Source of the DNA: an uncultured Candidatus Saccharimonadales bacterium
GTDB taxonomy: Bacteria; Patescibacteriota; Saccharimonadia; UBA4664
NCBI GenBank assembly: GCA_964467655.1
Contig: CAYXSN010000001.1
Location: forward strand, 6,323-70,322
DNA: 64,000 bases
Reading direction: 5' to 3'
Below, piece after piece: positions 13,204 to 27,787 of this stretch. Every line of letters begins with the position of its first letter. The first letter of the stretch is position 1. The position numbers and the translations under genes were made by a program. The notes below the pieces were generated by a model, which worked only from the letters and a program-made list of their open reading frames with translations, searched no databases and had not been told where the DNA came from.

Positions 13204-13862
13204 TAGATAACTCCTCTCACACTCACTAAGCCGCGCTTCGGCCCGGGCACTGCGCCGCTTACGCCGATAACACCGAGAGCCGCATCGATAACGGCGATTT
13301 TCAGACCTTTGACAGTTACTTGTTCGTGGCCCATGCGGCCGGCCATCTTCATGCCTTTGAATACGTGCTCCGGATATCCAGATCCGATAGATCCGGGTGC
13401 GCGGTAATTGTGAGAACCATGGGTTTTGGGCCCACGGCTGAAGTTGTGACGCTTAATGGTGCCGGCAAATCCTTTGCCCTTTGATACACCTGTGACCTCA
13501 ACGGCGTCGCCAACTTCAAAGGTGGTGACGTCAACTTTTTGGCCCACAGTCAGAGCTAGGGCAGCATCGGCTGCGGCAGTGTATTCTTTGACCCGCGGGT
13601 GCTTCGGGTCAATGGCATCAATCCTGAATTCTTTCATCACCTTGGCATTGCTACCTGAGGCTTTGAGATGGCCGGCCTGGGGTTTGGCCTGGTCTTTGGC
13701 CTCGCCAAAGCCCAGCTGGACGGCATTGTAGCCGTCACTTTCAAGCGTCTTAAGTTGAGTAACGGTGCAGGGGCCGGCCTGAATCAACGTTACACGCATA
13801 ACACTACCGTCTTGAGCAAACAGCTGTGTCATTCCGAGTTTGGTACCGAGCAATGCCTTCAA
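13203..13862 (-). CDS. rplC: 50S ribosomal protein L3
   Basis: 219-aa ORF MKALLGTKLGMTQLFAQDGSVMRVTLIQAGPCTVTQ... canonical L3. First gene of this r-protein run; there is no rpsJ upstream. Confidence 0.95.
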   Translation of the reverse strand: MKALLGTKLGMTQLFAQDGSVMRVTLIQAGPCTVTQLKTLESDGYNAVQLGFGEAKDQAKPQAGHLKASGSNAKVMKEFRIDAIDPKHPRVKEYTAAADAALALTVGQKVDVTTFEVGDAVEVTGVSKGKGFAGTIKRHNFSRGPKTHGSHNYRAPGSIGSGYPEHVFKGMKMAGRMGHEQVTVKGLKIAVIDAALGVIGVSGAVPGPKRGLVSVRGVI

Positions 13863-13982
13863 AGGAGTGGTCCTTTTACATAATTAATATCTAGCTCACG
13901 CCGGTTTCACTCATGTGCCGCGGTACTTGGCTTTACCACGTACATGCGTGACCTGGACATGCCTAGATGTAAATACCAGGAC

Positions 13983-14012
13983 ATCATAGCCTATCTGGGG
14001 CGTGCCTGTCAA
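13983..14012 (-). promoter_or_regulatory. Sigma70-like promoter upstream of rplC (TTGACA-18nt-TATGAT)
   Basis: Minus strand reads TTGACA (plus 14007-14012), an 18-nt spacer, then TATGAT (plus 13983-13988), about 115 nt upstream of the rplC ATG. Identified by eye only. Confidence 0.5.
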
Positions 14013-14037
14013 CCTTTTAGGGTTGTCTTTTTGGCCG

Positions 14038-14304
14038 TCAGCCCAAAAACGGCGGAAGGTTGACGAAGAAGCCGGCGCCCATAAGGCCGACTACGGCGGC
14101 CATGAGCATAACGGCGTACTCAACTTTGCGATCAATCGCAAAGTGGTCCTTTTGGGCAATCAATAGCCCGAGTACGAGTCCCAAGGGAAAAACAACGTAG
14201 CCGTTATATTTTACCCAAATCATACCCACTACTAGGTAGATGAGTAGCTTGAGAAAATAGGCGTCGTCGGTTTCACCGGGCTTGAATGATTTCTTATTTG
14301 CCAT
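14038..14304 (-). CDS. Small hypothetical membrane protein (2 predicted TM helices)
   Basis: 88-aa ORF with two hydrophobic stretches (LLIYLVVGMIWV, AVMLMAAVVGLMGAGFFV). No family recognised. Confidence 0.45.
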   Translation of the reverse strand: MANKKSFKPGETDDAYFLKLLIYLVVGMIWVKYNGYVVFPLGLVLGLLIAQKDHFAIDRKVEYAVMLMAAVVGLMGAGFFVNLPPFLG

Positions 14305-14349
14305 AGTACGTTTTAGTATAGACCGTAATCGAGCGTTAGCGCAAATTAC

Positions 14350-15606
14350 TTATGCTTTTTGCTGACGAGTGGTGCTTTTGCGGGCTGGTGGGTTATCTGA
14401 TGCCAAAAAGCTGTGACCAGCTAGTTCAGCGGGCAAAAAACCCTCTGGGTGTTGGTAGCCGGCCGCCCATTCGTAGCCTTCACCGTAGCCCAAATCTTTC
14501 ATGAGTTTCGTGCTGGCATTGCGCAAATGCAGCGGAACCTCGGCATTGGGCGCCTCAGCGAGCGCTTTTTCGGCCGCGCCAAGTGCATTGTAGACCCGAC
14601 GGTCTTTGGGGGCTTTGGCGAGCGCCACAGTGGCGTGGGCCAGCGTGATGCGGCCCTCGGGCAAGCCGATCCTCTCGATGGCTTGTGAAGTACTGACGGC
14701 TAATGTCAAAGCGCCCGAGCTAGCCAGGCCGATGTCCTCGGAGGCAAAAATAATGAGTCGGCGGGCAATGAATTTTGGGTCTTCACCGCCAGCCAGCATC
14801 CTGACTAAATAATAGAGCGCTGCATCGGCGTCGCTGCCACGCAATGATTTGATGTAGGCCGAAATGAGATTGTAATGGTACTCACCTTTTTTGTCGTATT
14901 TGACGCCTACCAGGCCTAGCGCTTGCTGGGCGTGAGTCCGCGTGATTTTGGTGGCGGTCAAACCGGCAGCAGTTTCCAGTGCGCCCAAGGCTACGCGGGC
15001 GTCGCCACCGGCTTGTTCGGCAATAAAGCCGGCCGCCTCGGCCTCCAGCAGCTTACTTCCCAGATGATCAGTGGCTTTTTGGAGGATTTTTTCAATATCC
15101 GAAGGCGTCAGCGCCGAAAGAGTCACCACCCGGGCTCTCGAGAGCAAGGGTCCGATAACCTCAAACGAGGGGTTCTCGGTGGTAGCGCCAATCAGGATAA
15201 TGGTGCCGTTTTCCAAGTGGGGCAAGAACGCGTCCTGCTGGGCCTTGTTGAATCTATGGATTTCGTCAACAAATAATAGGGTGGTTTCGCCCATGGACCG
15301 CCGTAAGTTGGCTTGTTCGATGACTTTTTTGACGTCAGGCAGGCCGCTTGTGACAGCTGACAGTTCGGTGAAAGCGGCCCCGGAGCGGCCGGCAATCAGG
15401 CGAGCCAAGGTGGTTTTACCGCTACCAGGTGGCCCCCAGAGGATGAGCGACGACAACGCCGAGCCATTGAGCATACCATGGACTACCGTACCCGGCCCGA
15501 CTGCTGCCTCTTGACCGATGTAGTCCTCTGGTGTTGCCGGCCTTAATCTGTCAGCCAGTGGCCTGGGTGCTTGGGCATCAAACAGTGTGGCGCCCTTAGA
15601 GGTCAT
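14350..15606 (-). CDS. rarA: Replication-associated recombination protein A (RarA/MgsA AAA+ ATPase)
   Basis: 418-aa ORF with Walker A (GPPGSGKTTLARLIA), Walker B (LFVDEIHRFNKAQQDAFLP) and the RarA/MgsA C-terminal helical region. Confidence 0.9.
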   Translation of the reverse strand: MTSKGATLFDAQAPRPLADRLRPATPEDYIGQEAAVGPGTVVHGMLNGSALSSLILWGPPGSGKTTLARLIAGRSGAAFTELSAVTSGLPDVKKVIEQANLRRSMGETTLLFVDEIHRFNKAQQDAFLPHLENGTIILIGATTENPSFEVIGPLLSRARVVTLSALTPSDIEKILQKATDHLGSKLLEAEAAGFIAEQAGGDARVALGALETAAGLTATKITRTHAQQALGLVGVKYDKKGEYHYNLISAYIKSLRGSDADAALYYLVRMLAGGEDPKFIARRLIIFASEDIGLASSGALTLAVSTSQAIERIGLPEGRITLAHATVALAKAPKDRRVYNALGAAEKALAEAPNAEVPLHLRNASTKLMKDLGYGEGYEWAAGYQHPEGFLPAELAGHSFLASDNPPARKSTTRQQKA

Positions 15607-16174
15607 ACACCTTGATGTCGTGGGGCGCCAGGTAGGCTAATTTCAGATGGGCGCCAATGACTGATGGCCAGCGCAAGCGGCTGGCGGTAAAGCACTCTTT
15701 GGCCAAAGTAGTCAGACCGGCTTTATCAAGGTGAGCGATATCACGGTCGGTGATCAGTTTTTGAGCCACCAGTTTATCTCCGGCGAGGGCCGCACCGGCG
15801 TCTAATGTCACCAGGTCAAAATTTGACTTGCTATCTAAATAATAAATCTTAGGTGCTGTGACGTGACGGAGTGGCTCGATACCGGCTATCATAATCTCAG
15901 TGTGCCCGACGTAACTGGCTATATTGGGGATAATTTTGATAGTCAGTTTAGCATGGATGTAATGCGCTACTGTTGTCGTATGCTCATGCTCGCCCAGGCT
16001 ATCAAGGTGAGAATCAAAAATGAGGCCCTCGATGGCGCTACGGTCTCCTACAATACTAATGACGGTTCGGTTGTGCAGGAGCTCAAAACGGGCTTTGGCA
16101 GTATTACCGTTTGGCCCCTGGTCGAGGCCGACAACCATCTCTTGTCCGTTACTGAATGCTAGTCCGAGAGGCAT
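15596..16174 (-). CDS. Hypothetical protein, tentative PNP/MTA-nucleosidase-family relative
   Basis: 192-aa ORF. N-terminus (LGLAFSNGQEM) and the segment GEHEHTTTVAHYIHAKLTIKIIPNIASYVG loosely resemble MTA/SAH nucleosidase motifs (IGIIGAMEEEV, VEMEATAIAHV...RAISDVAD), but the catalytic Asp position is substituted. Assignment is weak. 11-nt overlap with rarA. Confidence 0.35.
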   Translation of the reverse strand: MPLGLAFSNGQEMVVGLDQGPNGNTAKARFELLHNRTVISIVGDRSAIEGLIFDSHLDSLGEHEHTTTVAHYIHAKLTIKIIPNIASYVGHTEIMIAGIEPLRHVTAPKIYYLDSKSNFDLVTLDAGAALAGDKLVAQKLITDRDIAHLDKAGLTTLAKECFTASRLRWPSVIGAHLKLAYLAPHDIKVYDL

Positions 16175-16193
16175 AATGCCGTACGGTCCCTCC

Positions 16194-16841
16194 TTATCTA
16201 GCTGTATTGTAACGCGCCTTACCGACGGCGGCTAGTGCTCCATCGAGAGCTTTGGCGAGCGGATCATCAAGCAATCTGATTTCTGAGATTAGTTTGGCAG
16301 TCGTAAATTCGGGGTCAGCGGTTTGGCCTGAGTTTTTGGCGTTGTAGGCGAGTACCTCGAGGCGGTTGGCCTGATCAAGCCAATAATAGGCTAAGGCGAT
16401 TTGGTTGAGTTGAGCGGGATTGAGTAGGCCTGTAAGCTGACCTGTTCCCAGAGCTGCCGGCCAGTAGGCCATGACGTAGCCCAGGCGCGCGACCAGACCG
16501 GTACTACCGCGGCGCGAATCCAGTAGGGCTACGTTCTCCCTGAGTTCATTTTCGAGTTGGTCGAGGGCGGTGGTGGATGCGGCGGCTGATGGCACTGAGG
16601 CTGCTGGTGCTGTAGTTGGTTGGCTGTTGCGCCAGGCCACATACCAACTGATGAGCCAGAGTCCAAGTGTCAGAATGATCAGGGTTCCGAGCAGCCACCA
16701 CCAGGTAGTATTCAACCACACACCGTCGCGCCAACTGGTGATGTCGGCAAACCAGCCCAGCCGACCAGCCAGATAGCCGATGACCATAAGAATGGCTACG
16801 GTAATGGCGTACGGGATTGATGTACGAACTGTCTGATTCAT
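16194..16841 (-). CDS. Hypothetical membrane protein (2 N-terminal TM helices plus soluble domain)
   Basis: 215-aa ORF with hydrophobic N-terminal helices and Trp-rich juxtamembrane segments. No family recognised. Confidence 0.5.
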   Translation of the reverse strand: MNQTVRTSIPYAITVAILMVIGYLAGRLGWFADITSWRDGVWLNTTWWWLLGTLIILTLGLWLISWYVAWRNSQPTTAPAASVPSAAASTTALDQLENELRENVALLDSRRGSTGLVARLGYVMAYWPAALGTGQLTGLLNPAQLNQIALAYYWLDQANRLEVLAYNAKNSGQTADPEFTTAKLISEIRLLDDPLAKALDGALAAVGKARYNTAR

Positions 16842-16999
16842 CGCGCTATCTTACTGATAAACAGATGATTTGTACAGGATAAGTGGTTTATATTTGATAT
16901 TTATGTTTAACCGGCTTGTCGGATGTTGCTAATCTGAGATACACTTGAGCGAAGCATTTTGCCGGTACCTCCACAACCACTACCAGGAGCTGATTTTTT

Positions 17000-17860
17000 A
17001 TGTTCACCAAACTATGCCGACTGTTGGCCGTGCTTGTAGCGGCTGCGGTCTTTATCAGCGGTATGTTCATGACTTTGGCACTACCAAAAGCGGCGGCCGC
17101 CACCCAGATTCCCGTGAGTACTGGTATCTGGGGCGCCGTGTATTCGCAAGGTGGCTATGTGATGGCTACCGAAACTATCGACTACCACCGCCGTCACCAG
17201 GCCGGTAGTATCGGCTACATTGTGAGGAGTGAGGCCGCCTGGAACCATGCTGCGAATCAGCTGGTCCCCAAAGCTCAGCAGGTGGGCATGAGGGTCTCAC
17301 CGGTGATACTCCCCTATACCGAGGCGCCAACCCGTCAGCGGTGTCAGGCTACCAAGTACTTCGGTGGCAATCTCAACCGCGCCGTGACTAGATTGAGCCG
17401 CACTGCTGGTGTCGGCGACGTGGTCATAGATGACTTCATGGCAAATGTGACTCATTACTCACGTAAGAGCTGCAAGAGTATCAGTACTCAGCAATTTGGA
17501 GCTTGGGATAAGCAGGCGAAGCGCTATGGCAAAAGAGTTATGCCAACGCTTTATCCCCGTGATTTGAATTCAAAGAAGGCCAAGACTCTCAAAAGTCTCG
17601 ATGCCTATCGTCCCAAGGTGGTGTTCGCCTACAACAGTTTGCGCGATACTCGTAATCTGCCTAAGGCCGTACATGGTCTGCACAAACGAATGCCTCACGC
17701 ACAGGTCGTCATTATGGTGTACGCCGGTCCGTACCGGCATCAGTCAGCCAATAAAAAGGTAGTGGCGATTCAGCTGCGCCAAGCTATGGCACTCGACCGC
17801 AAATACCGGTGGGTTGTGGGTGTTTGGCAGTATAAGCCGCCGCTGCCCAAGCTCAAGTAA
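17000..17860 (+). CDS. Hypothetical secreted protein (signal-peptide-like N-terminus)
   Basis: 286-aa ORF. N-terminus MFTKLCRLLAVLVAAAVFISGMFMTLALPKAAAA looks like a signal peptide or anchor. AGGAG about 10 nt upstream of the ATG. Only plus-strand gene in this part of the window. Confidence 0.55.
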   Translation: MFTKLCRLLAVLVAAAVFISGMFMTLALPKAAAATQIPVSTGIWGAVYSQGGYVMATETIDYHRRHQAGSIGYIVRSEAAWNHAANQLVPKAQQVGMRVSPVILPYTEAPTRQRCQATKYFGGNLNRAVTRLSRTAGVGDVVIDDFMANVTHYSRKSCKSISTQQFGAWDKQAKRYGKRVMPTLYPRDLNSKKAKTLKSLDAYRPKVVFAYNSLRDTRNLPKAVHGLHKRMPHAQVVIMVYAGPYRHQSANKKVVAIQLRQAMALDRKYRWVVGVWQYKPPLPKLK

Positions 17861-17902
17861 CTCTCGCCCGCCCCTAGGACTCGTTCCTGGGGGCCATTAA
17901 CT

Positions 17903-18328
17903 TTATACCTGCGCACCTTCTCTGGCCTGATTGGCCCAGTGGTCGGCTAGTTCGTTGCCTTCGTCGTTGTTGTGTCCCCTCACCCATACCAATGTAGCAT
18001 TCGACTTTTGATACAACTCGTAGGCTTCTTGGACGATATCGAGGTTTTTGATGGGCCCGCCGGGTTTTTTCCAGCCCTTTTTCTCCCAGCCCGGCGCCCA
18101 TTTGGTGATGACATTGATCCAAAATTCGCTATCGGTATGAATGGCGCAAGCCCGGCCGGCGGCGTCTTGTAAGGCAGCAATCAGTGCCCTGCCTTCCATA
18201 CGGATATTGGTGGCGTTGGCGTCGCTACCTAAGATATGAGGTTTCATGTTTTTGATAACGGCAAAGCCTCCGGGTCCAGGGTTGGGTACGCAGCTGCCGT
18301 CGGTGTAATAGATGATGGATTCTGTCAT
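17903..18328 (-). CDS. rnhA: Ribonuclease HI
   Basis: 141-aa ORF MTESIIYYTDGSCVPNPGPGGFAVI...NNDEGNELADHWANQAREG with the RNase H DEDD catalytic pattern. No reverse-transcriptase domain attached. Confidence 0.9.
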   Translation of the reverse strand: MTESIIYYTDGSCVPNPGPGGFAVIKNMKPHILGSDANATNIRMEGRALIAALQDAAGRACAIHTDSEFWINVITKWAPGWEKKGWKKPGGPIKNLDIVQEAYELYQKSNATLVWVRGHNNDEGNELADHWANQAREGAQV

Positions 18329-18562
18329 GGTACTTATGATAGCAACTTTACGGATGAGGGTGTTACCACAAATTGCTATTATGTATTTTCGTTCAATATA
18401 TAATTCATGATTTCAGCAGAAAGATTGGAAAAGATTTAACGAGATTGTGGCTAATTGCTCGCAAAAACTGCCGATGCTACTGCGCAGCGAGGCATCTGAT
18501 TCGTTGTAAACGGGCATAATTACCAATGATTGGCTGAGCATTCATTGCGTTGATCATAACTT

Positions 18563-18582
18563 AAAACCCCCGTTTCCGGGGG
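18563..18582 (-). terminator. Rho-independent terminator downstream of rpsJ
   Basis: GC-rich hairpin CCCCCG-TTTC-CGGGGG (plus 18567-18582), followed on the minus strand by a T run. Confidence 0.55.
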
Positions 18583-18600
18583 CTTTGTCTGAGGACGAAA

Positions 18601-18933
18601 TTACATTTTGATTTCGATGTCGACGCCGGCGGGGAGGTTGAGATTCATGAGGGCGTCGATGGTTTTGGGGGTGGGCTCGGTGAGGTCGATGAGCCGCTTG
18701 TGAGTGCGCATTTCGAATTGCTCACGGGCATCTTTGTAGATGTGCGGGCTACGGAGCACTGTCAGGCTGTTCTTCTCGGTTGGGAGAGGAATCGGACCGG
18801 CGACATGAGCACCGGTTCGGGTAGCTGTGTCAATAATCTGCTTGGCGGATTGGTCAATGACCTTGGAGTCGTAAGCCTTGAGCCGGATGCGGATACGCTG
18901 CTTCTCGGGGGCTTTGGTTTCGGCGGTTGCCAT
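18601..18933 (-). CDS. rpsJ: 30S ribosomal protein S10
   Basis: 110-aa ORF ...[43 protein letters not shown]...[30 protein letters not shown], canonical S10. Separated from rplC by 4.7 kb. Confidence 0.95.
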
Positions 18934-19000
18934 GGGTAGGTACTATCTCTCGATAAATTAATATTGATGTGAGCCACACTCTTATCGTGGTTTCCTGCTG

Positions 19001-19030
19001 ATTTAAGCATAACTGTACCTGATTTGTCAA
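19001..19030 (-). promoter_or_regulatory. Candidate sigma70-like promoter for rpsJ (TTGACA-18nt-TTAAAT)
   Basis: Minus strand reads TTGACA (plus 19025-19030), 18 nt, then TTAAAT (plus 19001-19006), about 60 nt upstream of the rpsJ ATG. Confidence 0.4.
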
Positions 19031-19037
19031 ATATTTA

Positions 19038-19071
19038 GCCCCGCTCAGTAGGAGTTTTCACTGAGCGGGGC
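19038..19071 (-). terminator. Perfect 12-bp hairpin downstream of the low-GC ORF; possible terminator
   Basis: GCCCCGCTCAGT / ACTGAGCGGGGC inverted repeat with a 10-nt loop. The following minus-strand sequence is A/U-rich but has no clean U tract. Confidence 0.35.
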
Positions 19072-19124
19072 TGTGGGTCAATGGGTGGGCCGGGTTTGAC
19101 CCGCCACAAATGCTTTGATGCGCG

Positions 19125-20114
19125 TCATGGACTGTCCTTTGCTGGGTTTGTGGGTTCGATAATCGTTAGAATATAATCCAGAAATGTCTGCATATGACAA
19201 CTTAAATCCGATTCGACATCACCAGTATCGCATTTTGAAGCAATAGTCTTTGCCCTACGACTGAACGAGATGCCAATTTCGTCACTTGTAGATGTACAAA
19301 TAACAAAACTGCCGTAATCGTCAGAGTAATATTCGCCGAACGCGAATGTTAAACTGAAGTTGCTCGATAATCTACCGAAGATCGCTACAATTAGGCAAGG
19401 CTTGGGAGCTGAGGCTTTAAGTATAGTAATCTGTGTTATTGGTTCATTCGGATCCCAATCTAAAAGTGCAGCTTCCCATCCGTATATGTAGACCGCATTC
19501 AGAGACAACACCAACCTGTCTATTCTTGATTGATGCTCACTTAGACATTTCGAAAACGCATCGATTATACGTTGAACTTGCGTCGGCACAGTAGGTGCTG
19601 GATTGAGTTGTCTGATAATTATTTCGCCTGCCGAAATTAAGCCTTCGACGGCATTATTTTCTTGAAAGTGGTAGTCACTATATGATTGTTGCTGTGACCC
19701 GCTTAGATTAATCCTGACTTTGTCCCGTACATTTGCAACCAAGATATCAGTTACTTTTTGGCGCCTCCGACGTATCAGCATTACGGCTTGGAGGCTAAAT
19801 AGCCCCCGTTGAAAGCTGATGCAATATACTTTGATTGATCGCTGTGATGTAGTGGCCGGCACGAGCATATAGTACTGACCTTGGTGGTCATGTAGATTAC
19901 TGGCTAAATGGATTATGCCAGATTCGTTGACAACGCCAATTTGTTGATCTTCACGAACGAGTCCTTGGATAATTGACGCAAGTAGCTTACTGCTTCGATC
20001 GGCTGGATTCGCTATATCTGCAATGGATTCGGCTGCTGAGATAAATACATGGGCAAGCGAAGTCAGAGTCTCGTCTGGTAATGCGGTTGCCTCATTCATA
20101 TAACGTCCAATCAT
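19125..20114 (-). CDS. Hypothetical protein, low-GC ORFan inserted between tuf and rpsJ
   Basis: Long ORF (356 aa in the track; 329 aa from the first ATG downstream of the predicted promoter, MIGRYMNEATALPDE...). GC by eye is about 43-46 percent against about 57 percent in flanking genes. No recognisable domain. Flanked by a terminator (20197-20236) and a hairpin (19038-19071). Confidence 0.6.
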   Translation of the reverse strand: MIGRYMNEATALPDETLTSLAHVFISAAESIADIANPADRSSKLLASIIQGLVREDQQIGVVNESGIIHLASNLHDHQGQYYMLVPATTSQRSIKVYCISFQRGLFSLQAVMLIRRRRQKVTDILVANVRDKVRINLSGSQQQSYSDYHFQENNAVEGLISAGEIIIRQLNPAPTVPTQVQRIIDAFSKCLSEHQSRIDRLVLSLNAVYIYGWEAALLDWDPNEPITQITILKASAPKPCLIVAIFGRLSSNFSLTFAFGEYYSDDYGSFVICTSTSDEIGISFSRRAKTIASKCDTGDVESDLSCHMQTFLDYILTIIEPTNPAKDSP

Positions 20115-20151
20115 ATGGGCGGGCGACGGCAGTGTGTAAAGGTGCCGCCTG

Positions 20152-20180
20152 ATTATGCCGTAGTAATGGCAACTTGGCAA
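20152..20180 (-). promoter_or_regulatory. Candidate promoter for the low-GC ORF (TTGCCA-17nt-CATAAT)
   Basis: Minus strand reads TTGCCA (plus 20175-20180), 17 nt, then CATAAT (plus 20152-20157), about 40 nt upstream of the ATG at 20114. Confidence 0.35.
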
Positions 20181-20196
20181 TGATTTTGGACACAAC

Positions 20197-20236
20197 TAAA
20201 AACAGGCTCCGGTTGGGAGCCTGTTTTTAGTTTTTT
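20197..20236 (-). terminator. Bidirectional rho-independent terminator downstream of tuf
   Basis: 9-bp stem ACAGGCTCC-GGTTG-GGAGCCTGT, flanked by an A run upstream and TTTTTAGTTTTTT downstream. On the minus strand it sits 11 nt after the tuf stop. Confidence 0.6.
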
Positions 20237-20247
20237 GTAACGAGGCG

Positions 20248-21432
20248 TTACTTGATGACTTTAGTTACCACACCGGCGCCAACGGTTCGGCCACCTTCGC
20301 GGATAGCGAAGCGCAGGCCTTCTTCCATGGCGATCGGAGCGATCAACTCAACTTTCATCTTGATGTCGTCGCCAGGCATGACCATCTCAACGCCTTCAGG
20401 CAAGATGACAGCACCGGTTACATCGGTGGTGCGGACGTAGAACTGAGGCTTGTAGCCCTTGAAGAACGGAGTGTGACGGCCGCCCTCATCCTTGTTCAAG
20501 ACGTACACCTGGGCCTCAAACTCGGTGTGAGGAGTAACGGTACCGGGCTTAGCCAAAACCTGGCCGCGCTCGATGTCGGTACGTTCAACGCCGCGCAGCA
20601 AAGCTCCCACGTTGTCACCGGCCTGGGCGTCAGGCAGCAGTTTCTTGAACATTTCAACGCCGGTTACGACGGTTTTCTTGGTGGGGCGGATACCGACGAT
20701 TTCAACTTCGTCGTTGACCTTGAGGACACCCTGGTCGATGCGGCCGGTGGCAACAGTACCGCGGCCTTTGATCGAGAAGACGTCTTCAATAGCCATCAAA
20801 AACGGCTTGTCGACTTCGCGCTTGGGCTCAGGGAAGTAGTCGTCCATAGCTTTGACGAGGTCTAAAATGGACTGCTCGTTGTCGGCATCGCCTTCGAGAG
20901 CCTTGAGGGCAGAGCCCTTGATGATCGGGCAGTTCTCGTCGAACTCGTTCTTGGCGAGGAGCTCGCGGATTTCCATCTCGACCAATTCGGCCAGCTCTGG
21001 GTCGGCCATGTCCATTTTGTTCATGTAAACCAGAATGGAAGGCACACCCACCTGGCGGGCCAACAGAATGTGCTCGCGGGTCTGAGGCATGGGGCCATCG
21101 GCAGCAGATACCACGAGGATGGCACCATCAACCTGGGCGGCGCCGGTGATCATGTTTTTAACGTAGTCAGCGTGACCAGGCATGTCGACGTGGGCGTAGT
21201 GACGCTTCTCGGACTCATATTCCTGGTGGCTGGTAGCGATGGTAATACCACGCTGGCGCTCTTCGGGAGCGTTGTCAATCTGGTCGTAAGCGACCGGCTT
21301 GTTGATGTCTGAAGGCATCTTCTTTGCCAGTACCGAGGTAATGGCGGCGGTCAACGTGGTTTTACCGTGGTCGACGTGACCCATAGTGCCCACATTGAGG
21401 TGCGGTTTGTTGCGCTGGAATGTATCAGCCAT
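20248..21432 (-). CDS. tuf: Elongation factor Tu
   Basis: 394-aa [34 protein letters not shown]...[18 protein letters not shown], canonical EF-Tu G-domain motifs. AAGGAG 6 nt upstream of the ATG. Confidence 0.97.
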
Positions 21433-21527
21433 ACAATCTCCTTAAAAAAATTATGATTCGTCCCACGCCCCACTCAGGCGTGGGAATGCGGGTCAGCATA
21501 AAAATACTGCCCGCATTGGACGTAGGT

Positions 21528-21557
21528 ATTATAGGGGTTTTGAGCGCCTTTTGTAAA
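21528..21557 (-). promoter_or_regulatory. Candidate tuf promoter (TTTACA-18nt-TATAAT)
   Basis: Minus strand reads TTTACA (plus 21552-21557), 18 nt, then TATAAT (plus 21528-21533). Two hairpins lie in the roughly 90-nt leader. Confidence 0.45.
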
Positions 21558-21657
21558 GTAGTAGGTGCCGCCAGGGATTAACGGTTTGTCCTGTGTGGGT
21601 TACGTTCCCACTCCGGCCAATAATGGTGTTATGCCTGATAGTGACATTTTGGAGGGA

Positions 21658-22221
21658 TTATTTGATGTGGCCCAGATGGATGCCGGCTAGCATGAGCGCG
21701 GCGATGGTCTGGCCATTTGTAATTGTGCCGTCTTTGATGAGTTTGAGGGCGCTATTCCAAGTGACGAATTTGGTGGCTTCAGGGTTGTCTGATGTGTGTC
21801 GAATACCCGGAGCCAGCTTATGGAGGGTTTGAGCTATATATACTAACGAATACTCGGGTGTACGGCCGATGAACGGATATGTTTGATGCGGCAGGAGTTG
21901 CCAGTGCTCAGCCATATAGCCAGCTTCTTCGGCCAGCTCGCGTTGGGCCATGTCGAGCGGGTCTTGCCCATCGGTGGAACCACCCGGCAGCTCAAGGGAT
22001 GGAGCGTTAATTACGAACCGGTTTTGTTCGACGAGCGCCAACCGATGACGGTTATCAAGGGCCACCACCAAAACGCTGGGTGGGCTTTCGATCCAGGTGT
22101 AGACGCTTGCCTGGCCACTTGGTTCGATGACATTATCTTCGTGCAGGCTGAAGCGGCTGTTTTGGTAAACTGTGCGGCTACTAATGCGTTGCCATTGGCT
22201 CATGCCATTATTGTATAGCAT
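21658..22221 (-). CDS. Nudix hydrolase (ADP-ribose pyrophosphatase-like)
   Basis: 187-aa ORF with a Nudix box, LPGGSTDGQDPLDMAQRELAEEAGY. Confidence 0.75.
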   Translation of the reverse strand: MLYNNGMSQWQRISSRTVYQNSRFSLHEDNVIEPSGQASVYTWIESPPSVLVVALDNRHRLALVEQNRFVINAPSLELPGGSTDGQDPLDMAQRELAEEAGYMAEHWQLLPHQTYPFIGRTPEYSLVYIAQTLHKLAPGIRHTSDNPEATKFVTWNSALKLIKDGTITNGQTIAALMLAGIHLGHIK

Positions 22222-22272
22222 AAGCGGTCCAGTAGGTAGGTACCCGCTGGACCGCTGGCCGTTACGATTGGT

Positions 22273-22728
22273 TTAACGCTTACTGGACTGAGGCCGTTTG
22301 CGCCGGACTTTGTATGGTTGAGTCCCGGGTGGAGCGGGCGTTGGTCTATTTGTCTCCCGCTTGACGCGAATGTCGAGCTCGTGATCGACACCGGCGATAG
22401 CATTGATGACATTCGTGACAACATCAAGTGCGAATCGGCGGGCGACCCGAAATTTGTCTGGTGGTACTTCATAGACTGCCACACCTGGATGTTTGTGGTA
22501 TGTTCCGCGCAGCTCCACCCACTTTATTTGGCCGCCGAATTGCTTCATGACTGCCCTCACGCTTGAGTAGATACCGGTGTTTGGTTCGTTGACAGCCGGG
22601 TTTGGGGCAAACTCAAAGGTTCTTTGGGGCCAGCACCGCTGCAAGTCGGGCGGTAGCACGAGCAGTAGCGTGCCATGGCGAGGATCTTGGTGGATAAACT
22701 CTACGCTCACAACGATAGTTGTCGTCAT
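22273..22728 (-). CDS. Hypothetical protein (151 aa) co-oriented with the downstream Nudix gene
   Basis: Start trimmed to MTTTIVVSVEF... (GGAG 7 nt upstream), the first ATG after the predicted promoter. Basic Pro-rich C-terminal tail. No family recognised; a Tpt1/KptA resemblance was checked and rejected. Confidence 0.5.
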   Translation of the reverse strand: MTTTIVVSVEFIHQDPRHGTLLLVLPPDLQRCWPQRTFEFAPNPAVNEPNTGIYSSVRAVMKQFGGQIKWVELRGTYHKHPGVAVYEVPPDKFRVARRFALDVVTNVINAIAGVDHELDIRVKRETNRPTPAPPGTQPYKVRRKRPQSSKR

Positions 22729-22792
22729 TGTCACTCCACTAGGATTCGGGGTTGGATGAAGTATAAGGTGCTCTGGACCGGCGGGTACTTGT

Positions 22793-22821
22793 ATAATAGG
22801 CACCCACACCAGAGACGTCAA
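22793..22821 (-). promoter_or_regulatory. Strong sigma70-like promoter (TTGACG-17nt-TATTAT) for the hyp151-Nudix pair
   Basis: Minus strand reads TTGACG (plus 22816-22821), 17 nt, then TATTAT (plus 22793-22798), immediately after the fusA terminator. Confidence 0.5.
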
Positions 22822-22834
22822 ATCAAGACACATC

Positions 22835-22865
22835 AAAACGGCAGCTCATTATGAGCTACCGTTTT
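22835..22865 (-). terminator. Rho-independent terminator downstream of fusA
   Basis: Near-perfect palindrome AAAACGGCAGCTCAT-T-ATGAGCTACCGTTTT on plus, with one G-U wobble on the minus-strand RNA. It follows the fusA stop by about 20 nt. Confidence 0.55.
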
Positions 22866-22883
22866 GGATGACGCAGAGCGAAA

Positions 22884-24965
22884 CTAGTCTTTTTTTGCAC
22901 CTGATTTGGCCATAATCTCTTCGGCTACCTGGCGTGGCACTTCTTCGTAATGGTCGAATTCCATAGAGTTCGAAGCCCGACCTTGAGTCATTGACCTGAG
23001 AGTCGTGGTGTAGCCAAACATTTCGGCCAGCGGCACGAAGGCATCGATGATTTTGGCACCGGAGCGGTCTTCCATTTTCTCGATGCGTCCCCGCTTGGAG
23101 TTGAGGTCGCCGATGACGTCGCCCATGAACTCTTCTGGTACGGTCACTTCAACTTTCATAATTGGCTCGAGGATGATGGGCTCAGCCTTTTTGGCAGCTG
23201 CCTGGAAGGCCATGGAACCGGCCACCTTGAAGGCCATTTCATTGGAGTCGACATCGTGATATGAGCCGTCGTACAGTTTGGCTTTGATATCCACCATCGG
23301 GAAGCCGGCTGAAACGCCGTTTTGCATGGCTTCCTTCACGCCTTCTTCGGTTGGCTTGATGTACTCGCGAGGCACGACACCACCGACAATGGCGTTTTCA
23401 AACTCGAATCCGCCACCTGGTTCAAGTGGTGTCAGTTCAACCCAGACATCGCCGTACTGACCGCGACCACCTGATTGGCGGACGAATTTGCCTTGGGCCT
23501 GGGCGGTCTTCTTGATGGTTTCACGGTAAGCTACCTGAGGCTTGCCAACGTTGGCTTCTACCTTGAACTCACGTTTCATACGATCAACGAGGATATCGAG
23601 ATGGAGCTCACCCATGCCCTCGAGAATGGTTTGAGCAGTCTGCTCGTCGGTGTGCACACGGAAAGTGGGATCTTCTTCGGCTAAACGCTGAAGGGCATTA
23701 CCCATCTTCTCTTGGTCAGACTTGGTCTTGGGTTCTACGGCAATTGAGATGACCGGCTCGGGGAAGGTGATGCTCTCGAGAATCACTGGATGGTCAAGAT
23801 CGGTGAGAGTATGCCCGGTTGTGGTGCCCTTGAGGCCGACGGCGGCGGCAATTTCACCGGCGGATACTTCTTGGACTTCTTCGCGAGAGTTGGCGTGCAT
23901 GAGTACGAGGCGGCCGATGCGTTCTTTTTCGCCAGTTGAGGCGTTTAAGATATATGAACCGCTTTTGAGTACGCCTGAGTATACCCTGAAGAAAGCTAGC
24001 TTACCAATGAATGGGTCGGTGGCAATCTTGAAGGCCAGGGCGCTAAATGGCTCTTCGTCGGCTGGTTTGCGCTCAAGCTCTTCGCCAGATTTGGGATTGG
24101 TGCCCCAAACTGAACCAACGTCGAGCGGGTTGGGCAGGAAGTCGACCATGGCATCGAGCAATTTTTCCACGATGACTCCGCGACCATCGCCACCGGTTAC
24201 GGCAAAGAACTGACCCGAGAGCACGCTTTTGCGGATAGCGCTCTTGAGTTCATCGGTAGTCAGCTCGTGGCCTTCGAGGTACTTCTCCATAAGGGCGTCA
24301 TCGGCTTCCACGGCGGCTTCCACCAAATGTTGGCGGTAATTCTTGGCTTTTTCGAGCATGTCGGCTGGAATTTCGCCCTCAATCAGCTCGTGGTCGTGGT
24401 ATTCCTTGTAGGTGTAGGCTTTCATTTCGATAAGGTCGATTACGCCATTGATGGTCTGCTCGAAACCGATGGGCAGGTGGATGGCATAGGCACGCTTGCT
24501 TAAACGCTCATGGATTGATTCGAGCGACTTGTAGAAGTCGCCGCCGGTCTGGTTGATCTTATTGATGAAGCAGATGCGCGGCACGCCGTATTTGTCGGCC
24601 TGGCGCCAAACCGTTTCTGACTGCGGCTCTACGCCCATCTTACCGTCGAACACGGTGACGGCGCCGTCGAGCACGCGCAAGCTACGCTCCACTTCTACCG
24701 TGAAATCGATGTGACCAGGGGTATCAATGATGTTGATGCGTCGACCTTTCCAAAAGCAGGTAGTGGCTGCGGAGGTAATGGTAATGCCACGTTCGCGCTC
24801 TTGCTCCATCCAGTCCATGGTGGCTTCACCTTGGTGGACTTCACCGATCTTGTGGGTTTTACCGGTGCGGTACAAAATACCCTCGGTGGTCGTGGTTTTG
24901 CCAGCATCAATGTGGGCAATAATGCCGATGTTCCGGGTGTTTTCGAGCGAGTATTGACGGGCCAT
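22884..24965 (-). CDS. fusA: Elongation factor G (start trimmed to [25 protein letters not shown])
   Basis: Canonical EF-G G-domain ([20 protein letters not shown]) and domains II-V. The 34-codon N-terminal extension in the ORF track is unlikely to be translated. Confidence 0.97.
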
Positions 24966-25027
24966 GGGGGTAGTTAGAATCCTTTCATAATAATATGTCC
25001 TACACGAAAAAAGCGTGCCAGGCACAA

Positions 25028-25057
25028 ACTTATGGTTATTATACAAGCTAACTACTT
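25028..25057 (-). promoter_or_regulatory. Candidate fusA promoter (TTGATT-18nt-TATAAT, TG immediately upstream of -10)
   Basis: Minus strand reads TTGATT (plus 25052-25057), 18 nt, then TGTATAAT (plus 25028-25035), about 60 nt upstream of the trimmed fusA ATG. AT-rich region. Confidence 0.45.
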
Positions 25058-25074
25058 GGCTAATCAAGTGCTAT
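25046..25074 (+). promoter_or_regulatory. Divergent plus-strand promoter (TTGGCT-17nt-TATTAT), back to back with the fusA promoter
   Basis: Plus strand reads TTGGCT (25046-25051), 17 nt, then TATTAT (25069-25074). Its -35 abuts the -35 of the minus-strand fusA promoter. Confidence 0.4.
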
Positions 25075-25116
25075 ATGGTATTATTTTGTGCGTTCGGTAC
25101 CTACACAATCGAGACG

Positions 25117-25293
25117 ATGAAAGCAGGTAACATCATGAGTTGGCCCGGTCTTAAGCGTACGAACGGCACGGTTCCGTCTCCAGAGAAGCCTGACGTGATA
25201 AGGGGTAGGCGAAAGGCGCAAGAAGAGAAGGAAGAGCAAGAGCGCCTAGCGCGTCGTGGTAGGTGGATGCCAAGAGCCTTTAAGAAGAAGTAA
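25117..25293 (+). CDS. Small basic hypothetical protein (58 aa); coding status uncertain
   Basis: ATG at 25117 gives MKAGNIMSWPGLKRTNGTVPSPEKPDVIRGRRKAQEEKEEQERLARRGRWMPRAFKKK. It lies between the plus-strand promoter and a plus-strand intrinsic terminator. Weak SD. Confidence 0.3.
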   Translation: MKAGNIMSWPGLKRTNGTVPSPEKPDVIRGRRKAQEEKEEQERLARRGRWMPRAFKKK

Positions 25294-25432
25294 CGAGAGA
25301 ACACGCAGGATAGTCATAAGCCCGGAAAATGATCTGCCTGACTGGCATTCTTCCGAACTGATACCCCTAAGGAGCAAGCATGACTAACTACGATTCAGAA
25401 AATAGGCGCGGTGAGCGTACCTAAGCACCACC

Positions 25433-25470
25433 AGCCCGTTACGCGATCCTTGCGTAGCGGGCTTTTACTT
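25433..25470 (+). terminator. Plus-strand rho-independent terminator (12-bp stem plus T tract)
   Basis: AGCCCGTTACGC-GATCCTT-GCGTAGCGGGCT followed by TTTTACTT. The same hairpin sits right at the mpl stop on the minus strand but has no U tract there. Confidence 0.55.
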
Positions 25471-26847
25471 GGCGTTGAGGGACGTTGCTAATTCGTTGGC
25501 CAGATTGTCAAATCCTGAGACCGTCATGCATACCAAAACATCACCTGGCTGGATATGGGCCTTGAGGTGGGTCACGACTTCGGGTCGGTTTTCCAGATAT
25601 GTGGCCGTTTTCCCGGCAACTTTAGCGACATCGGCGCCCGAAACAGTATGGGAGAGGTGGGCTTCGCGAGCACCTTCGATCCCGGTAATAATGCTCATGT
25701 CGGCTTCGTTGAACGCATTTGCATAGTTTGCCAGTAGCGCGGCTGTGCGTGAATAGGTATGCGGTCTGAAGACGGCAATAATGCGACGATGGCGGTAATG
25801 CAGACGGGCGGCTTCTAGAGTGGCAGCTACCTCCGTTGGGTGGTGAGCGTAATCGTCGATGACCGTGACGGCATCATCACTGGTAGTCAGGCGGTTGAAC
25901 CGTCGGTATGAGCCTTTGAACTCTGTGGCGCCGTTGATAACTTGGCCGAGATCGAGACCTGCCTTGAGGACAGCCGCGATGGCGGACAGCGAATTGAGGA
26001 CATTGTGGCGACCAAACACCGGGAGGGCGACGCGTCCGAGCACATTGCCGTACGCCACCACATCAAATTCGATTCCCGCCGGTACATAGGCAATGTTGCG
26101 GGCTTGATAATCGCCCGTGTGCAGGCCATATGTGATGATGTCACAAGGAGCCACCCGGGCTGCCGCTAGGGCGTTGCTGTTTTCGGCGCAGACAATCAGG
26201 CGCCCGGACTTTGGCAAAGCGGCTATGATTTCTTCGAATCGGCTCATGACGGCAGCTTCATTGACAAAGAAATCGGGATGATCCATTTCGATGTTGGTAA
26301 CAATGAGCGTATCTGGGTGATAGTACTGGAGTTTGGACTTGTCCTCCAAAGGACTGGCTCGATACTCGTCACCTTCGACCACCATTGTCTTGGCACCAGA
26401 TAGACGCACCGATGAATCGAAGTTGAAAGGCTGGATGCCGATGACATAATCGGGGTGGCGGCCAGCGCTCTCGAGTAGCCAGGTGATTAGCGAGCTGGTG
26501 GTAGTCTTGCCGTGAGTGCCGGCCACTGCTATTACGTGAGCTTTGGCTGACAGTTCACCTACGAGCTGAGCCCAGGATTTGACAGATATATCATGCTTGG
26601 CAGCTTCAATGATGACGGGGGTATCTGGTGATACATGAGCTCCTGTGACAATGACGGCCTCAACGCCGTGCAGATCGGCTATCTGAAACTCCCGGCTCCA
26701 CGGTATGCCATGTTCATCCAACCAAGCGGCGCCAGGGTCAGCACCAGCAGGATCAAAGCCCGAAACTTTGTACCCAAGCTGGGTGCAGGCTTCGGCCAGC
26801 CCTCGCATGGTGTGGCCGGTAATGCCAACAAAAAACAGATGTTTCAT
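25465..26847 (-). CDS. mpl: Mur ligase family protein, Mpl-like (UDP-N-acetylmuramate:L-alanyl-gamma-D-glutamyl-meso-DAP ligase) or MurC-like
   Basis: 460-aa ORF with the Mur ligase P-loop (AVAGTHGKTTTSSL) and GDEYRASPLEDKSKLQYYHPD resembling the Mpl GDEYDxAFFDKRSKF motif. Confidence 0.75.
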   Translation of the reverse strand: MKHLFFVGITGHTMRGLAEACTQLGYKVSGFDPAGADPGAAWLDEHGIPWSREFQIADLHGVEAVIVTGAHVSPDTPVIIEAAKHDISVKSWAQLVGELSAKAHVIAVAGTHGKTTTSSLITWLLESAGRHPDYVIGIQPFNFDSSVRLSGAKTMVVEGDEYRASPLEDKSKLQYYHPDTLIVTNIEMDHPDFFVNEAAVMSRFEEIIAALPKSGRLIVCAENSNALAAARVAPCDIITYGLHTGDYQARNIAYVPAGIEFDVVAYGNVLGRVALPVFGRHNVLNSLSAIAAVLKAGLDLGQVINGATEFKGSYRRFNRLTTSDDAVTVIDDYAHHPTEVAATLEAARLHYRHRRIIAVFRPHTYSRTAALLANYANAFNEADMSIITGIEGAREAHLSHTVSGADVAKVAGKTATYLENRPEVVTHLKAHIQPGDVLVCMTVSGFDNLANELATSLNAK

Positions 26848-26882
26848 GGTGCCATTGTACCATCATGCTGATAGTGCAAGAG

Positions 26883-27785: not shown

Positions 27786-27787
27786 GG

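What the first reader, a model, noticed from the sequence alone, without database searches (positions are those of the whole stretch)
18934..20247. Low-GC 329-aa ORFan with its own promoter and flanking terminators, wedged between tuf and rpsJ
tuf and rpsJ are adjacent in nearly all bacteria. Here a 1-kb ORF of distinctly lower GC (roughly 43-46 against 57 percent in neighbours, judged by eye) occupies the gap. It is insulated by a clean bidirectional terminator after tuf (20197-20236) and a 12-bp perfect hairpin on its 3' side (19038-19071). A TTGCCA-17-CATAAT promoter candidate sits about 40 nt upstream of the first ATG. The protein has no motif I can assign. Its composition, insulation and position in the most conserved gene string of the genome mark it as horizontally acquired and single-gene. 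A single-gene defence or abortive-infection-like factor, or a lineage-specific translation-associated factor, are possibilities, but I cannot tell which.
Basis: partly seen in the sequence, partly recalled or inferred. Interest (0 to 1): 0.8.

Follow-up and report, generated by a model that had tools for sequence, protein, structure and literature searches.

The report
Strain-specific orphan gene between tuf and rpsJ
A soil Saccharibacteria genome carries a foreign-looking 1.2-kb single-gene insert between two core translation genes; the insert is real, but the site is a gene-swapping hot spot in this lineage and the protein's function cannot be read from its sequence.

Summary
Window 19125-20114 (-) is an intact 329-codon ORF. 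Its GC (0.431), GC3 (0.385) and codon adaptation are the lowest of 58 ORFs in the window. A strong tuf terminator (20194-20232) precedes it and a 13-bp perfect hairpin (19037-19072) follows it. A TTGCCA-17-CATAAT promoter-like site lies upstream.

The genome is a Saccharimonadia (TM7) MAG. The same locus, at least 99.9% identical, recurs in six fetched contigs and on about 12 contigs on record, so it is not an assembly artefact.

The protein has no relative beyond itself in two searches of a collection of about 15 billion predicted proteins. It also has no hit in Pfam, NCBIfam, PHROGs, PADLOC, PDB sequences, or phage and plasmid tblastn. Two AlphaFold runs failed (pLDDT 38).

The new context matters most. 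In 11 related lineages (EF-Tu 91-100% identical), the tuf-rpsJ gap is empty in two and holds at least eight different cargoes in nine. Cargo always lies between the tuf terminator and an invariant rpsJ promoter.

Best reading: an acquired accessory gene cassette in a recombination hot spot. Nothing supports defence or a translation role. Function remains unknown. Interest is modest.

The parts
20248..21432 (-). tuf (EF-Tu, 394 aa). Left anchor of the slot, with its own promoter-like site TTTACA-18-TATAAT at 21557-21528.
   Evidence: ORF. 100% identical to P0002 and 86-96% identical to the other listed hits, six of which sources name as Saccharimonadia/Saccharibacteria EF-Tu. Promoter scan.
20194..20232 (-). 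Intrinsic terminator of tuf. 17-bp perfect stem flanked by an A-run and a T-run, so it could act in both directions.
   Evidence: -27 kcal/mol, z = -7.2, 0 of 200 shuffles as stable.
19033..20247 (-). The 1215-bp insert as a whole. It has no counterpart in the nearest relative L084, where 68 bp occupy this place. GC is 0.450, and every one of the lowest-GC 1215-bp frames of the window overlaps it.
   Evidence: blastn boundaries. Junction sequences. GC scan. No flanking direct or terminal inverted repeats.
20152..20180 (-). Promoter candidate P1, TTGCCA-17-CATAAT. It would give a 5' UTR of about 30 nt without a Shine-Dalgarno sequence before ATG 20114.
   Evidence: 10 of 12 matches. Upstream sequence. 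Function is inferred, not shown.
20110..20138 (-). Alternative promoter candidate P2, TACACA-17-TATGAT. Its -10 element ends 10 nt before the second ATG (20099). That would fit the near-leaderless pattern of several other genes in this window.
   Evidence: 9 of 12 matches. Leaderless-type starts elsewhere in the window. ENA/NCBI callers start the gene at this ATG.
19125..20114 (-). Orphan ORF of 329 aa (324 aa from ATG 20099): 36.5 kDa, pI 5.5, no transmembrane segment. No relative is detectable anywhere.
   Evidence: Cluster members.
19037..19072 (-). 13-bp perfect hairpin with a 10-nt loop at the 3' end of the insert, immediately upstream of the rpsJ promoter. Probably the terminator or insulator of the cassette, though its U-tract is poor.
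   Evidence: It was not called by the terminator scan because of its loop length and weak T-run.
19001..19030 (-). rpsJ promoter: TTGACA (19030-19025), 18-nt spacer, TTAAAT (19006-19001), with TG at 19009-19008. Right-hand boundary of the slot.
   Evidence: TTGACA and TGCTT.AAT are invariant in 8 lineages (alignment A1). Homology with L084 resumes at 19032.
18601..18933 (-). rpsJ (S10, 110 aa). Right anchor of the slot.
   Evidence: PF00338 on the identical gene in L001 and L090.

Best explanation
**What is shown**

The segment 19033-20247 is a horizontally acquired, monocistronic accessory-gene cassette: promoter-like site, ORF, hairpin. It sits in a clade-specific hypervariable slot of a soil Saccharimonadia (TM7) genome.

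The slot is the boundary between two independent transcription units. One ends at the tuf terminator. The other begins at an invariant rpsJ promoter. DNA placed there disturbs neither neighbour.

Related lineages carry nothing, or quite different genes, at exactly this place. The ORF is intact and compositionally coding-like. It is kept without frameshift or stop on every contig on record for it. It is far below the genome in GC and GC3.

**What is inferred**

- The donor was a lower-GC genome and the transfer was recent, because the composition has not ameliorated.
- Entry was by homologous recombination through the conserved tuf and rpsJ flanks after DNA uptake. No integrase, transposase, target duplication or terminal repeat is present, and cultured Saccharibacteria are naturally transformable.
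- The product is a soluble cytoplasmic protein of about 36 kDa. It serves a dispensable, strain-level function and is not part of translation.
- The function class cannot be resolved. My ranking is a conflict or interaction role (phage, host or competitor) at about 0.3, another niche-specific accessory role at about 0.4, and effectively neutral cargo on its way to loss at about 0.25.
For: **Composition**
- The ORF has the lowest GC, GC3 and CAI of 58 ORFs. Every one of the lowest-GC 1215-bp frames of the 64 kb overlaps the insert.
- Other lineage-specific ORFs without a Pfam hit in the same window have normal GC, 0.51-0.56.
- The ORF's GC is also below that of intergenic DNA, 0.497.

**Real gene**
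- P(no stop) is 5.6e-10.
- Amino-acid composition is protein-like: z = 3.3 against 1000 nucleotide shuffles, none reaching the observed value.
- Purine at codon position 1 is 0.60, against 0.65 in core genes.

**Not an artefact**
- Six fetched contigs from six samples, assembled by two pipelines (Logan, ENA), match the window at 100% or at 99.95-99.98% identity.
- The protein cluster is on record on about 12 contigs, also from NCBI and JGI. The only variants are S30Y and I210M.

**Boundaries**
- Homology to relative L084 stops at the tuf stop codon and resumes at 19032, just before the rpsJ -35 element.

**Slot variability in 11 lineages with EF-Tu 91-100% identical**
- Empty in L084-86 and in the P0012 contig.
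- Inositol_P + 280 aa + 117 aa in L087.
- Inositol_P + 127 aa in L088/89.
- 171 aa + 89 aa in L093.
- 160 aa + Inositol_P in L094.
- 192 aa + 288 aa in L095.
- ATP-grasp protein of 439 aa in L096.
- Two further cargoes in L097 and L098.
- Sources.

**Transcription units**
- The rpsJ promoter is invariant in 8 lineages.
- Each of the five relatives whose tuf-downstream sequence was read has a hairpin with a T-run after tuf.

**No mobile-element signature**
- One search finds no flanking direct or terminal inverted repeats.

**Literature**
- Hot spots of transfer flanked by core genes often lack mobile elements. They show homologous recombination at the flanks and are over-represented in transformable bacteria (PMC5635113).
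- Saccharibacteria take up DNA naturally and integrate promoter-ORF-terminator cassettes into intergenic sites through homology arms of about 1 kb (PMC10633639).
Against: - Expression is not shown. ATG 20114 has no Shine-Dalgarno sequence and ATG 20099 has only a weak GGA.
- Promoter-like sites are only about twofold enriched in this region.
- The 3' hairpin lacks a U-tract.
- No donor, and no second copy in another context, was found. Foreign origin therefore rests on composition and absence from relatives, not on a traced transfer.
- The nearest sampled relatives are not close. Their tuf DNA is 83-88% identical and other genes about 70%. The time of gain is therefore poorly bounded, and loss in relatives cannot be formally excluded.
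- Natural competence was shown for cultured oral and related Saccharibacteria, not for this soil lineage.
Confidence: 0.65

Rival explanations
1. It is a single-gene anti-phage defence or abortive-infection factor. It would sense infection and stop the cell or the phage.
For: - It is a single insulated gene of foreign composition in a variable slot.
- Neighbouring variable slots in relatives do carry conflict-type genes: an Mrr-like nuclease after rpsJ in L096 and a Fic protein in L095.
- Core-gene-flanked hot spots are rich in defence systems in other bacteria (PMC10250203, listed; title and abstract only).
Against: - PADLOC gives no hit even at E <= 1.
- I saw no nuclease, HEPN, P-loop or other catalytic motif when reading the sequence by eye (sequence printed; no motif scan was run).
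- None of nine cargo proteins from the slots of relatives hits PADLOC.
- Cargo in the tuf-rpsJ slot itself is mostly metabolic or unknown: Inositol_P, ATP-grasp.
- Defence genes usually have detectable relatives because they spread widely. This one has none in two searches of a collection of about 15 billion predicted proteins.
Confidence: 0.15
2. It is functionless cargo: a recently imported or decaying ORF, possibly unexpressed, that has not yet been lost from a tolerant intergenic site.
For: - It has no homologues anywhere and is confined to one population.
- The only polymorphisms found inside the ORF are both non-synonymous.
- The ribosome-binding context is weak.
- AlphaFold gives no confident fold.
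- The slot clearly turns over fast.
Against: - The 990-nt frame is intact on every contig on record for it.
- Its composition is protein-like rather than random.
- It has a tidy promoter-ORF-hairpin layout.
- The 64-kb window is densely coding: only about 7 kb lie outside the 58 listed ORFs.
- From general knowledge, not tested here: Saccharibacteria genomes are small and streamlined, so idle DNA is expected to be purged.
Confidence: 0.2
3. It is a lineage-specific translation-associated factor, co-located with tuf and rpsJ because it works with them.
For: Only its position between EF-Tu and S10.
Against: - It is absent from all ten related lineages examined, two of which have an empty junction.
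- Its composition is foreign.
- A strong terminator separates it from tuf, and a hairpin and rpsJ's own invariant promoter separate it from rpsJ.
- Other cargoes at the same site are unrelated to translation.
Confidence: 0.03
4. It is a de novo gene born from local non-coding DNA, or an old native gene that evolved beyond recognition.
For: It has no homologues at all. Orphan genes are often AT-richer than core genes (general knowledge).
Against: - Its GC (0.431) is below that of this genome's intergenic DNA (0.497), and its GC3 is 0.385.
- A 329-codon open frame is very unlikely to arise by chance.
- The nearest relative has only 68 bp at the site and no alignable remnant.
- Other lineage-specific genes in the window have native composition.
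Confidence: 0.05

Closest known systems
Chromosomal hot spots of horizontal gene transfer flanked by core genes (Oliveira, Touchon, Cury and Rocha 2017, PMC5635113)
   Same: One interval bounded by the same two core genes holds different, rapidly turning-over accessory genes in related genomes. No recognisable mobile element is present. The organism belongs to a group shown to be naturally transformable.
   Different: - The interval lies inside the otherwise highly conserved str/S10 translation gene string.
- Each cargo is one to three genes, not an island.
- The formal pan-genome statistic that defines a hot spot was not computed here.
Core-gene-flanked defence hot spots (for example in Pseudomonas aeruginosa, PMC10250203)
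   Same: Variable cargo sits between conserved anchors. Neighbouring slots in relatives hold an Mrr-like nuclease and a Fic protein.
   Different: The ORFan and nine slot proteins from relatives match no defence model. Cargo in this slot is mostly non-defence or unknown.
Engineered neutral-site cassettes in Saccharibacteria (Wang et al. 2023, PMC10633639)
   Same: A promoter-ORF-terminator unit is placed in an intergenic site, flanked by about 1 kb of homologous sequence on each side. In the laboratory such units integrate through natural transformation. That study also treats tuf as a unit with its own promoter and terminator.
   Different: This is a natural event with an unknown donor. Competence of this soil lineage is assumed, not shown.
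Taxonomically restricted (orphan) genes of Patescibacteria
   Same: A hypothetical protein with no family assignment in a reduced genome that has a large share of unknown genes (that share is general knowledge).
   Different: - This one has literally no relative beyond its own population in two searches of a collection of about 15 billion predicted proteins.
- Its composition is clearly foreign, unlike the other unknown genes in the window.

Membership tests
HGT hot spot flanked by core genes (sensu Oliveira et al. 2017) | The same two core genes bound the interval in all genomes compared. | tested here: met
   tuf and rpsJ bound the interval in the window and in 8 related lineages. In L097 and L098 the contig ends before rpsJ is reached, so only the tuf side was seen.
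HGT hot spot flanked by core genes (sensu Oliveira et al. 2017) | High diversity and turnover of accessory genes in the interval. | tested here: met
   9 of 11 lineages are occupied, with at least 8 different contents. The ORFan is unrelated to any ORF in those loci (phmmer --max).
HGT hot spot flanked by core genes (sensu Oliveira et al. 2017) | A statistical excess of acquired gene families relative to other intervals of the same pan-genome. | not tested
   This needs complete genomes of the clade. Only loci around tuf were fetched.
Integrative mobile element or genomic island | An integrase or transposase, flanking direct repeats (att sites or target duplications), or terminal inverted repeats. 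| tested here: not met
   The only ORF has no Pfam hit. No flanking repeat longer than 9 nt spans the insert.
Known anti-phage defence systems (PADLOC-DB 2.0) | A match to a defence-protein HMM. | tested here: not met
   0 families at E <= 1.
Abortive-infection factor (functional class) | Phage-triggered growth arrest or death of the carrier cell. | not testable with these tools
   This needs phage challenge experiments.
Glutaminase (PF04960 / TIGR03814) | A score at or above the curated cut-off. | tested here: not met
   16.5 bits against a cut-off of 27, and 14.6 bits against 255.4. About 100 residues are matched. phmmer finds no PDB glutaminase. Treated as noise.
Rho-independent terminator (for the two hairpins) | A G+C-rich stem followed directly by a U-tract. 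| tested here: met
   The tuf terminator at 20194-20232 meets both criteria. The hairpin at 19037-19072 meets the stem criterion only and is followed by AAAUAUUU. Its terminator role is therefore inferred.
Tandem NTF2-like proteins (TcpC/VirB8-like), from the best Foldseek match | A confident structural match of a confident model. | tested here: inconclusive
   Model pLDDT is 37.6. The best hit, 3ub1, has E = 0.016 and TM-score 0.10, and there are 0 hits at E <= 0.001. The match is uninterpretable.

The most novel reading that the evidence does not exclude
The ORF founds a previously unseen protein family with an active role in conflict or partner interaction: phage, host actinobacterium or rival epibiont. 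The tuf-rpsJ junction of this Saccharimonadia clade would then be a natural 'landing pad' where promoter-to-terminator cassettes are exchanged by transformation and recombination through the two most conserved genes available as homology arms.
Probability: 0.15. Interest if true: 0.55.

Novelty: new member of a known kind. Interest (0 to 1): 0.3.

Why it matters
The gene itself is one more orphan in a phylum full of unknown genes.

The locus shows something more useful. In one soil Saccharimonadia clade, the boundary between the tuf terminator and an invariant rpsJ promoter is a recurrent, mobile-element-free insertion slot, even though it lies in the middle of the translation gene string. That has three consequences:
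- It is a compact natural example of hot-spot transfer driven by recombination in ultra-small, naturally transformable bacteria.
- It suggests a ready-made neutral site for genetic engineering of such organisms.
- It gives a defined place to harvest strain-specific accessory genes for functional screens.

It is also a caution for phylogenomics and binning, because the ribosomal-protein string is not contiguous in every Patescibacteria lineage.

Tried and rejected
**Homology searches that returned nothing but the gene itself, or nothing at all**
- Word-indexed HMMER search of 5.8 billion cluster representatives.
- Exhaustive phmmer against 1.84 billion representatives.
- Pfam, PADLOC, PHROGs and NCBIfam.
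- PDB sequences at E <= 10.
- tblastn against phage and plasmid collections.
- Peptide-pattern scans of viral contigs and JGI metagenome contigs.
- phmmer --max against all six-frame ORFs of the window and of eight related loci.
- BLASTP against the 362-aa and 280-aa neighbours in relatives.

**Structure**
- AlphaFold2 on the full protein gave pLDDT 37.6, and on the C-terminal 180 residues gave 38.0.
- Foldseek against the PDB with the poor model gave no hit at E <= 0.001.
Sequence does not support it: Smith-Waterman z = 0.18.

**RNA**
- Rfam found nothing in 18500-20400, even at E <= 1.
- The whole window gave only one tRNA.

**Mobile-element signatures**
- None found.

**A wasted scan**
- It served only as a baseline for tuf-rpsJ spacing.
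- Relatives were reached instead through EF-Tu protein hits and contig look-ups.

**Explanations rejected**
- Assembly chimera: six independently fetched contigs share the same junctions.
- The weak glutaminase matches: far below the curated cut-offs.
Full report
**1. What is there**

On the minus strand the order is as follows.
- tuf, 20248-21432.
- A 17-bp perfect hairpin with an A-run and a T-run, 20194-20232.
- A TTGCCA-17-CATAAT site, 20180-20152.
- An open frame from ATG 20114 to a stop codon at 19125-19127, 329 aa.
- A 13-bp perfect hairpin, 19037-19072.
- The rpsJ promoter, 19030-19001.
- rpsJ, 18601-18933.

The promoter and terminator scan finds the tuf terminator and the promoter-like site. 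The repeat finder gives both hairpins as 100% complementary. Folding gives -27 kcal/mol (z = -7.2) for the tuf terminator and -42.7 kcal/mol (z = -5.3) for the ORF's 3' region. The second hairpin is followed by AAAUAUUU rather than a clean U-tract, so its role as a terminator is inferred.

The promoter-like match is apt in position. Such matches are only about twofold enriched in this stretch, 7 found against 3.7 expected.

**2. Composition**

Against 57 other ORFs of the window, the ORF is the lowest on all three measures.

| Measure | ORF | Other 57 ORFs | Lowest of the others |
|---|---|---|---|
| GC | 0.431 | 0.537 +/- 0.025 | 0.469 |
| GC3 | 0.385 | 0.584 +/- 0.042 | 0.493 |
| Window-based CAI | 0.616 | 0.725 +/- 0.042 | 0.630 |

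- In a scan with 1215-bp frames, the fifteen lowest-GC frames of the 64 kb all overlap the insert. The minimum is 0.443, against a mean of 0.530 and sd of 0.024. The insert itself is 0.450.
- Other lineage-specific ORFs with no Pfam hit in the window have native GC of 0.51-0.56: 22273-22836, 17000-17860, 16194-16841 and 15596-16174. This is therefore not the generic AT-richness of orphan genes.
- The ORF's GC is also below intergenic GC, 0.497.

**3. Is it a gene?**

- The chance of 356 stop-free codons at this composition is 5.6e-10. The other five frames have 14-23 stops.
- Its amino-acid composition is closer to that of the window's core proteins than any of 1000 shuffles of the same nucleotides, z = 3.3.
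- Purine at codon position 1 is 0.60, against 0.65 in core genes.
- The protein is 36.5 kDa with pI 5.5 and no transmembrane segment.
- The start is uncertain. ATG 20114 has no Shine-Dalgarno sequence.
- ATG 20099 has a weak GGA. It lies 10 nt after a TATGAT that belongs to a second promoter-like site.
- Several genes in this window have a -10 box 6-9 nt before the ATG, which suggests leaderless mRNAs. The ENA/NCBI callers use ATG 20099.

**4. Is it an artefact?**

No.
- Three Logan assemblies carry the locus at 100% identity.
- Three ENA assemblies carry it at 100%, 99.98% and 99.95%.
- The protein's 90% cluster has five members on about 12 contigs from Logan, ENA, NCBI and JGI. They differ only in the called start and in two substitutions, S30Y and I210M.
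- No copy has a frameshift or a stop codon.

**5. Whose genome?**

EF-Tu of the window is 100% identical to P0002 and 86-96% identical to the other listed hits. Six of those hits carry source names, all Candidatus Saccharimonadia, Saccharimonadales or Saccharibacteria. One related contig is labelled as a soil metagenome.

**6. Relatives: the main result**

I used EF-Tu hits to fetch contigs of ten related lineages. Their EF-Tu proteins are 91-96% identical to the window's. tuf DNA, measured for nine of them, is 83-88% identical.

| Lineage | Content of the tuf-rpsJ junction |
|---|---|
| L084-86 | Empty (163 bp between the genes) |
| P0012 contig | Empty (34 bp) |
| L087 | Inositol_P + 280 aa + 117 aa |
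| L088/89 | Inositol_P + 127 aa |
| L093 | 171 aa + 89 aa |
| L094 | 160 aa + Inositol_P |
| L095 | 192 aa (RNA_pol_A_CTD) + 288 aa |
| L096 | ATP-grasp protein, 439 aa |
| L097 | Another gene |
| L098 | A membrane protein |

- Counting the window itself, 9 of 11 lineages are occupied, with at least eight different contents.
- None of those proteins, and nothing else in those loci or in the window, resembles the ORFan.
- In a sample of unrelated bacteria where S10 follows tuf, the gap is under 500 bp in 31 of 34 loci. That includes three other Patescibacteria at 78-158 bp. The variability is therefore a property of this clade.

**7. Boundaries and architecture**

- Against L084, homology runs through tuf to its stop codon and resumes at window 19032. 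In between, 68 bp in L084 correspond to 1215 bp here.
- The right boundary is an rpsJ promoter whose TTGACA and TGCTT.AAT elements are invariant in eight lineages (alignment A1).
- In the five relatives whose tuf-downstream sequence was read (L084, L087, L088, L097, L098), tuf ends with its own hairpin and T-run.
- In the four of them that carry cargo, a TTGAC(T/G) or TTGCCA motif followed by an A+T-rich hexamer precedes the first cargo gene. I read these by eye and did not scan for them.
- The slot is thus the seam between two transcription units, a place where insertion is harmless.
- No target-site duplication, terminal inverted repeat or recombinase gene accompanies the insert.

**8. How it got there (inferred)**

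Published work shows that transfer concentrates in a few intervals flanked by core genes. Many such hot spots lack mobile elements and show homologous recombination at the flanks. They are over-represented in transformable species (PMC5635113).

Saccharibacteria are naturally competent. They integrate promoter-ORF-terminator cassettes into intergenic sites through homology arms of about 1 kb (PMC10633639).

tuf and rpsJ are the best-conserved arms a donor and a recipient could share: 86-88% DNA identity here, against about 70% for neighbouring genes. Recombination through these flanks after DNA uptake is the most economical route. This is inference. No donor was found.

**9. What the protein does**

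Nothing could be assigned.
- The protein has no relative beyond itself in two searches of a collection of about 15 billion predicted proteins.
- It has no hit in Pfam, NCBIfam, PHROGs, PADLOC or the PDB.
- It has no hit in phage, plasmid, viral or JGI metagenome DNA.
- The weak glutaminase matches are far below their cut-offs, 16.5 and 14.6 bits against 27 and 255. I treat them as noise.
- AlphaFold2 without homologues fails, at pLDDT 37.6 and 38.0. Foldseek hits on that model are uninterpretable, with the best at E = 0.016 and TM-score 0.10.

A translation role is unlikely. The gene is absent from relatives, foreign in composition and insulated from both neighbours.

A defence role is possible but unsupported. 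There is no PADLOC hit for the ORFan or for nine slot proteins of relatives. Neighbouring slots in two relatives do hold a Fic protein and an Mrr-like nuclease.

I therefore commit only to a dispensable, strain-level accessory protein, expressed on its own if at all. My split is roughly 0.3 for a conflict or interaction role, 0.4 for another accessory role and 0.25 for effectively neutral cargo.

**10. Verdict**

Its sense that the position makes the gene special is not supported, because the site is a routine cargo slot in this clade.

The case is a new member of a known kind: accessory cargo in a core-flanked recombination hot spot. The protein has no known family. Interest is modest, 0.3. 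The reusable finding is the hot spot itself, not the orphan gene.

Noticed in passing
window 12550-31691: The str/S10 gene string is fragmented throughout. Reading the minus strand:
- rpsL-rpsG, followed by five genes: a 195-aa unknown, a PCC-domain protein, an ABC-F ATPase, a NUDIX protein and a Mur ligase.
- fusA, followed by a 187-aa unknown and a NUDIX protein.
- tuf, the ORFan and rpsJ.
- Then RNase H, a 286-aa unknown on the plus strand, 215-aa and 192-aa unknowns, and MgsA.
- Finally rplC and rplD.

Much of this interleaving is shared with relative L084.
   Followed up: partly
window 18934-19030; alignment A1: The rpsJ promoter (TTGACA-N18-TTAAAT with an upstream TG) is invariant in 8 lineages. 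The last 25 nt or so of the leader (GATCGAAAGATAGTACCTACCC before the ATG) is nearly identical in 6 of them, although it contains no Shine-Dalgarno sequence. This may be a regulatory or initiation element for S10.
   Followed up: partly
window upstream of 29458, 26847, 45921, 27785 and 18328 (minus-strand gene starts): Several genes have a TATAAT-like box ending 6-9 nt before the ATG and no Shine-Dalgarno sequence. This suggests frequent leaderless mRNAs in this genome, alongside many genes with a clear AGGAG.
   Followed up: no
window 21433-21657; L084:6720-7808; L087:7319-7807; L097:4312-4644; L095:8620-9039; L096:8054-9577: The neighbouring slots are also variable.
- The NUDIX-tuf gap is empty in the window. 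It holds a 362-aa, a 162-aa or a 110-aa unknown in relatives.
- The gap after rpsJ holds RNase H here, a Fic protein in L095 and a 507-aa Mrr_cat/NA-iREase1 nuclease in L096.

Sources.
   Followed up: partly
window 45274-45921 (-), next to the tRNA at 45991-46071: This is the second-lowest-GC ORF of the window (0.469). It is a 215-aa P-loop kinase-like protein with borderline hits to AAA_18, CPT and Zeta_toxin, and it lies beside the only tRNA gene. It may be another acquired gene.
   Followed up: no
window 20026 and ORFan codon 210: The only polymorphisms found inside the ORFan are two non-synonymous ones. S30Y is a C>A change at 20026 on the minus strand, seen in sample ERZ27248701. I210M is seen in a JGI contig. 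None of the six fetched DNA copies carries a synonymous difference.
   Followed up: yes
L019 and L028 (Streptomyces hazeniae; a Dermatophilaceae MAG): Among unrelated bacteria, two actinobacterial loci also have several kb between tuf and rpsJ (3.5 and 2.6 kb). Separation of the two genes is therefore not unique to this clade.
   Followed up: no
L087:9365-10306; L088:4198-5139; L094:7149-7853: An inositol-monophosphatase-family gene (Inositol_P) occupies the tuf-rpsJ slot in three lineages that do not group together in a rough tuf neighbour-joining tree. It may be the ancestral occupant, later lost or replaced. No homologue is present in the 64-kb window.
   Followed up: partly
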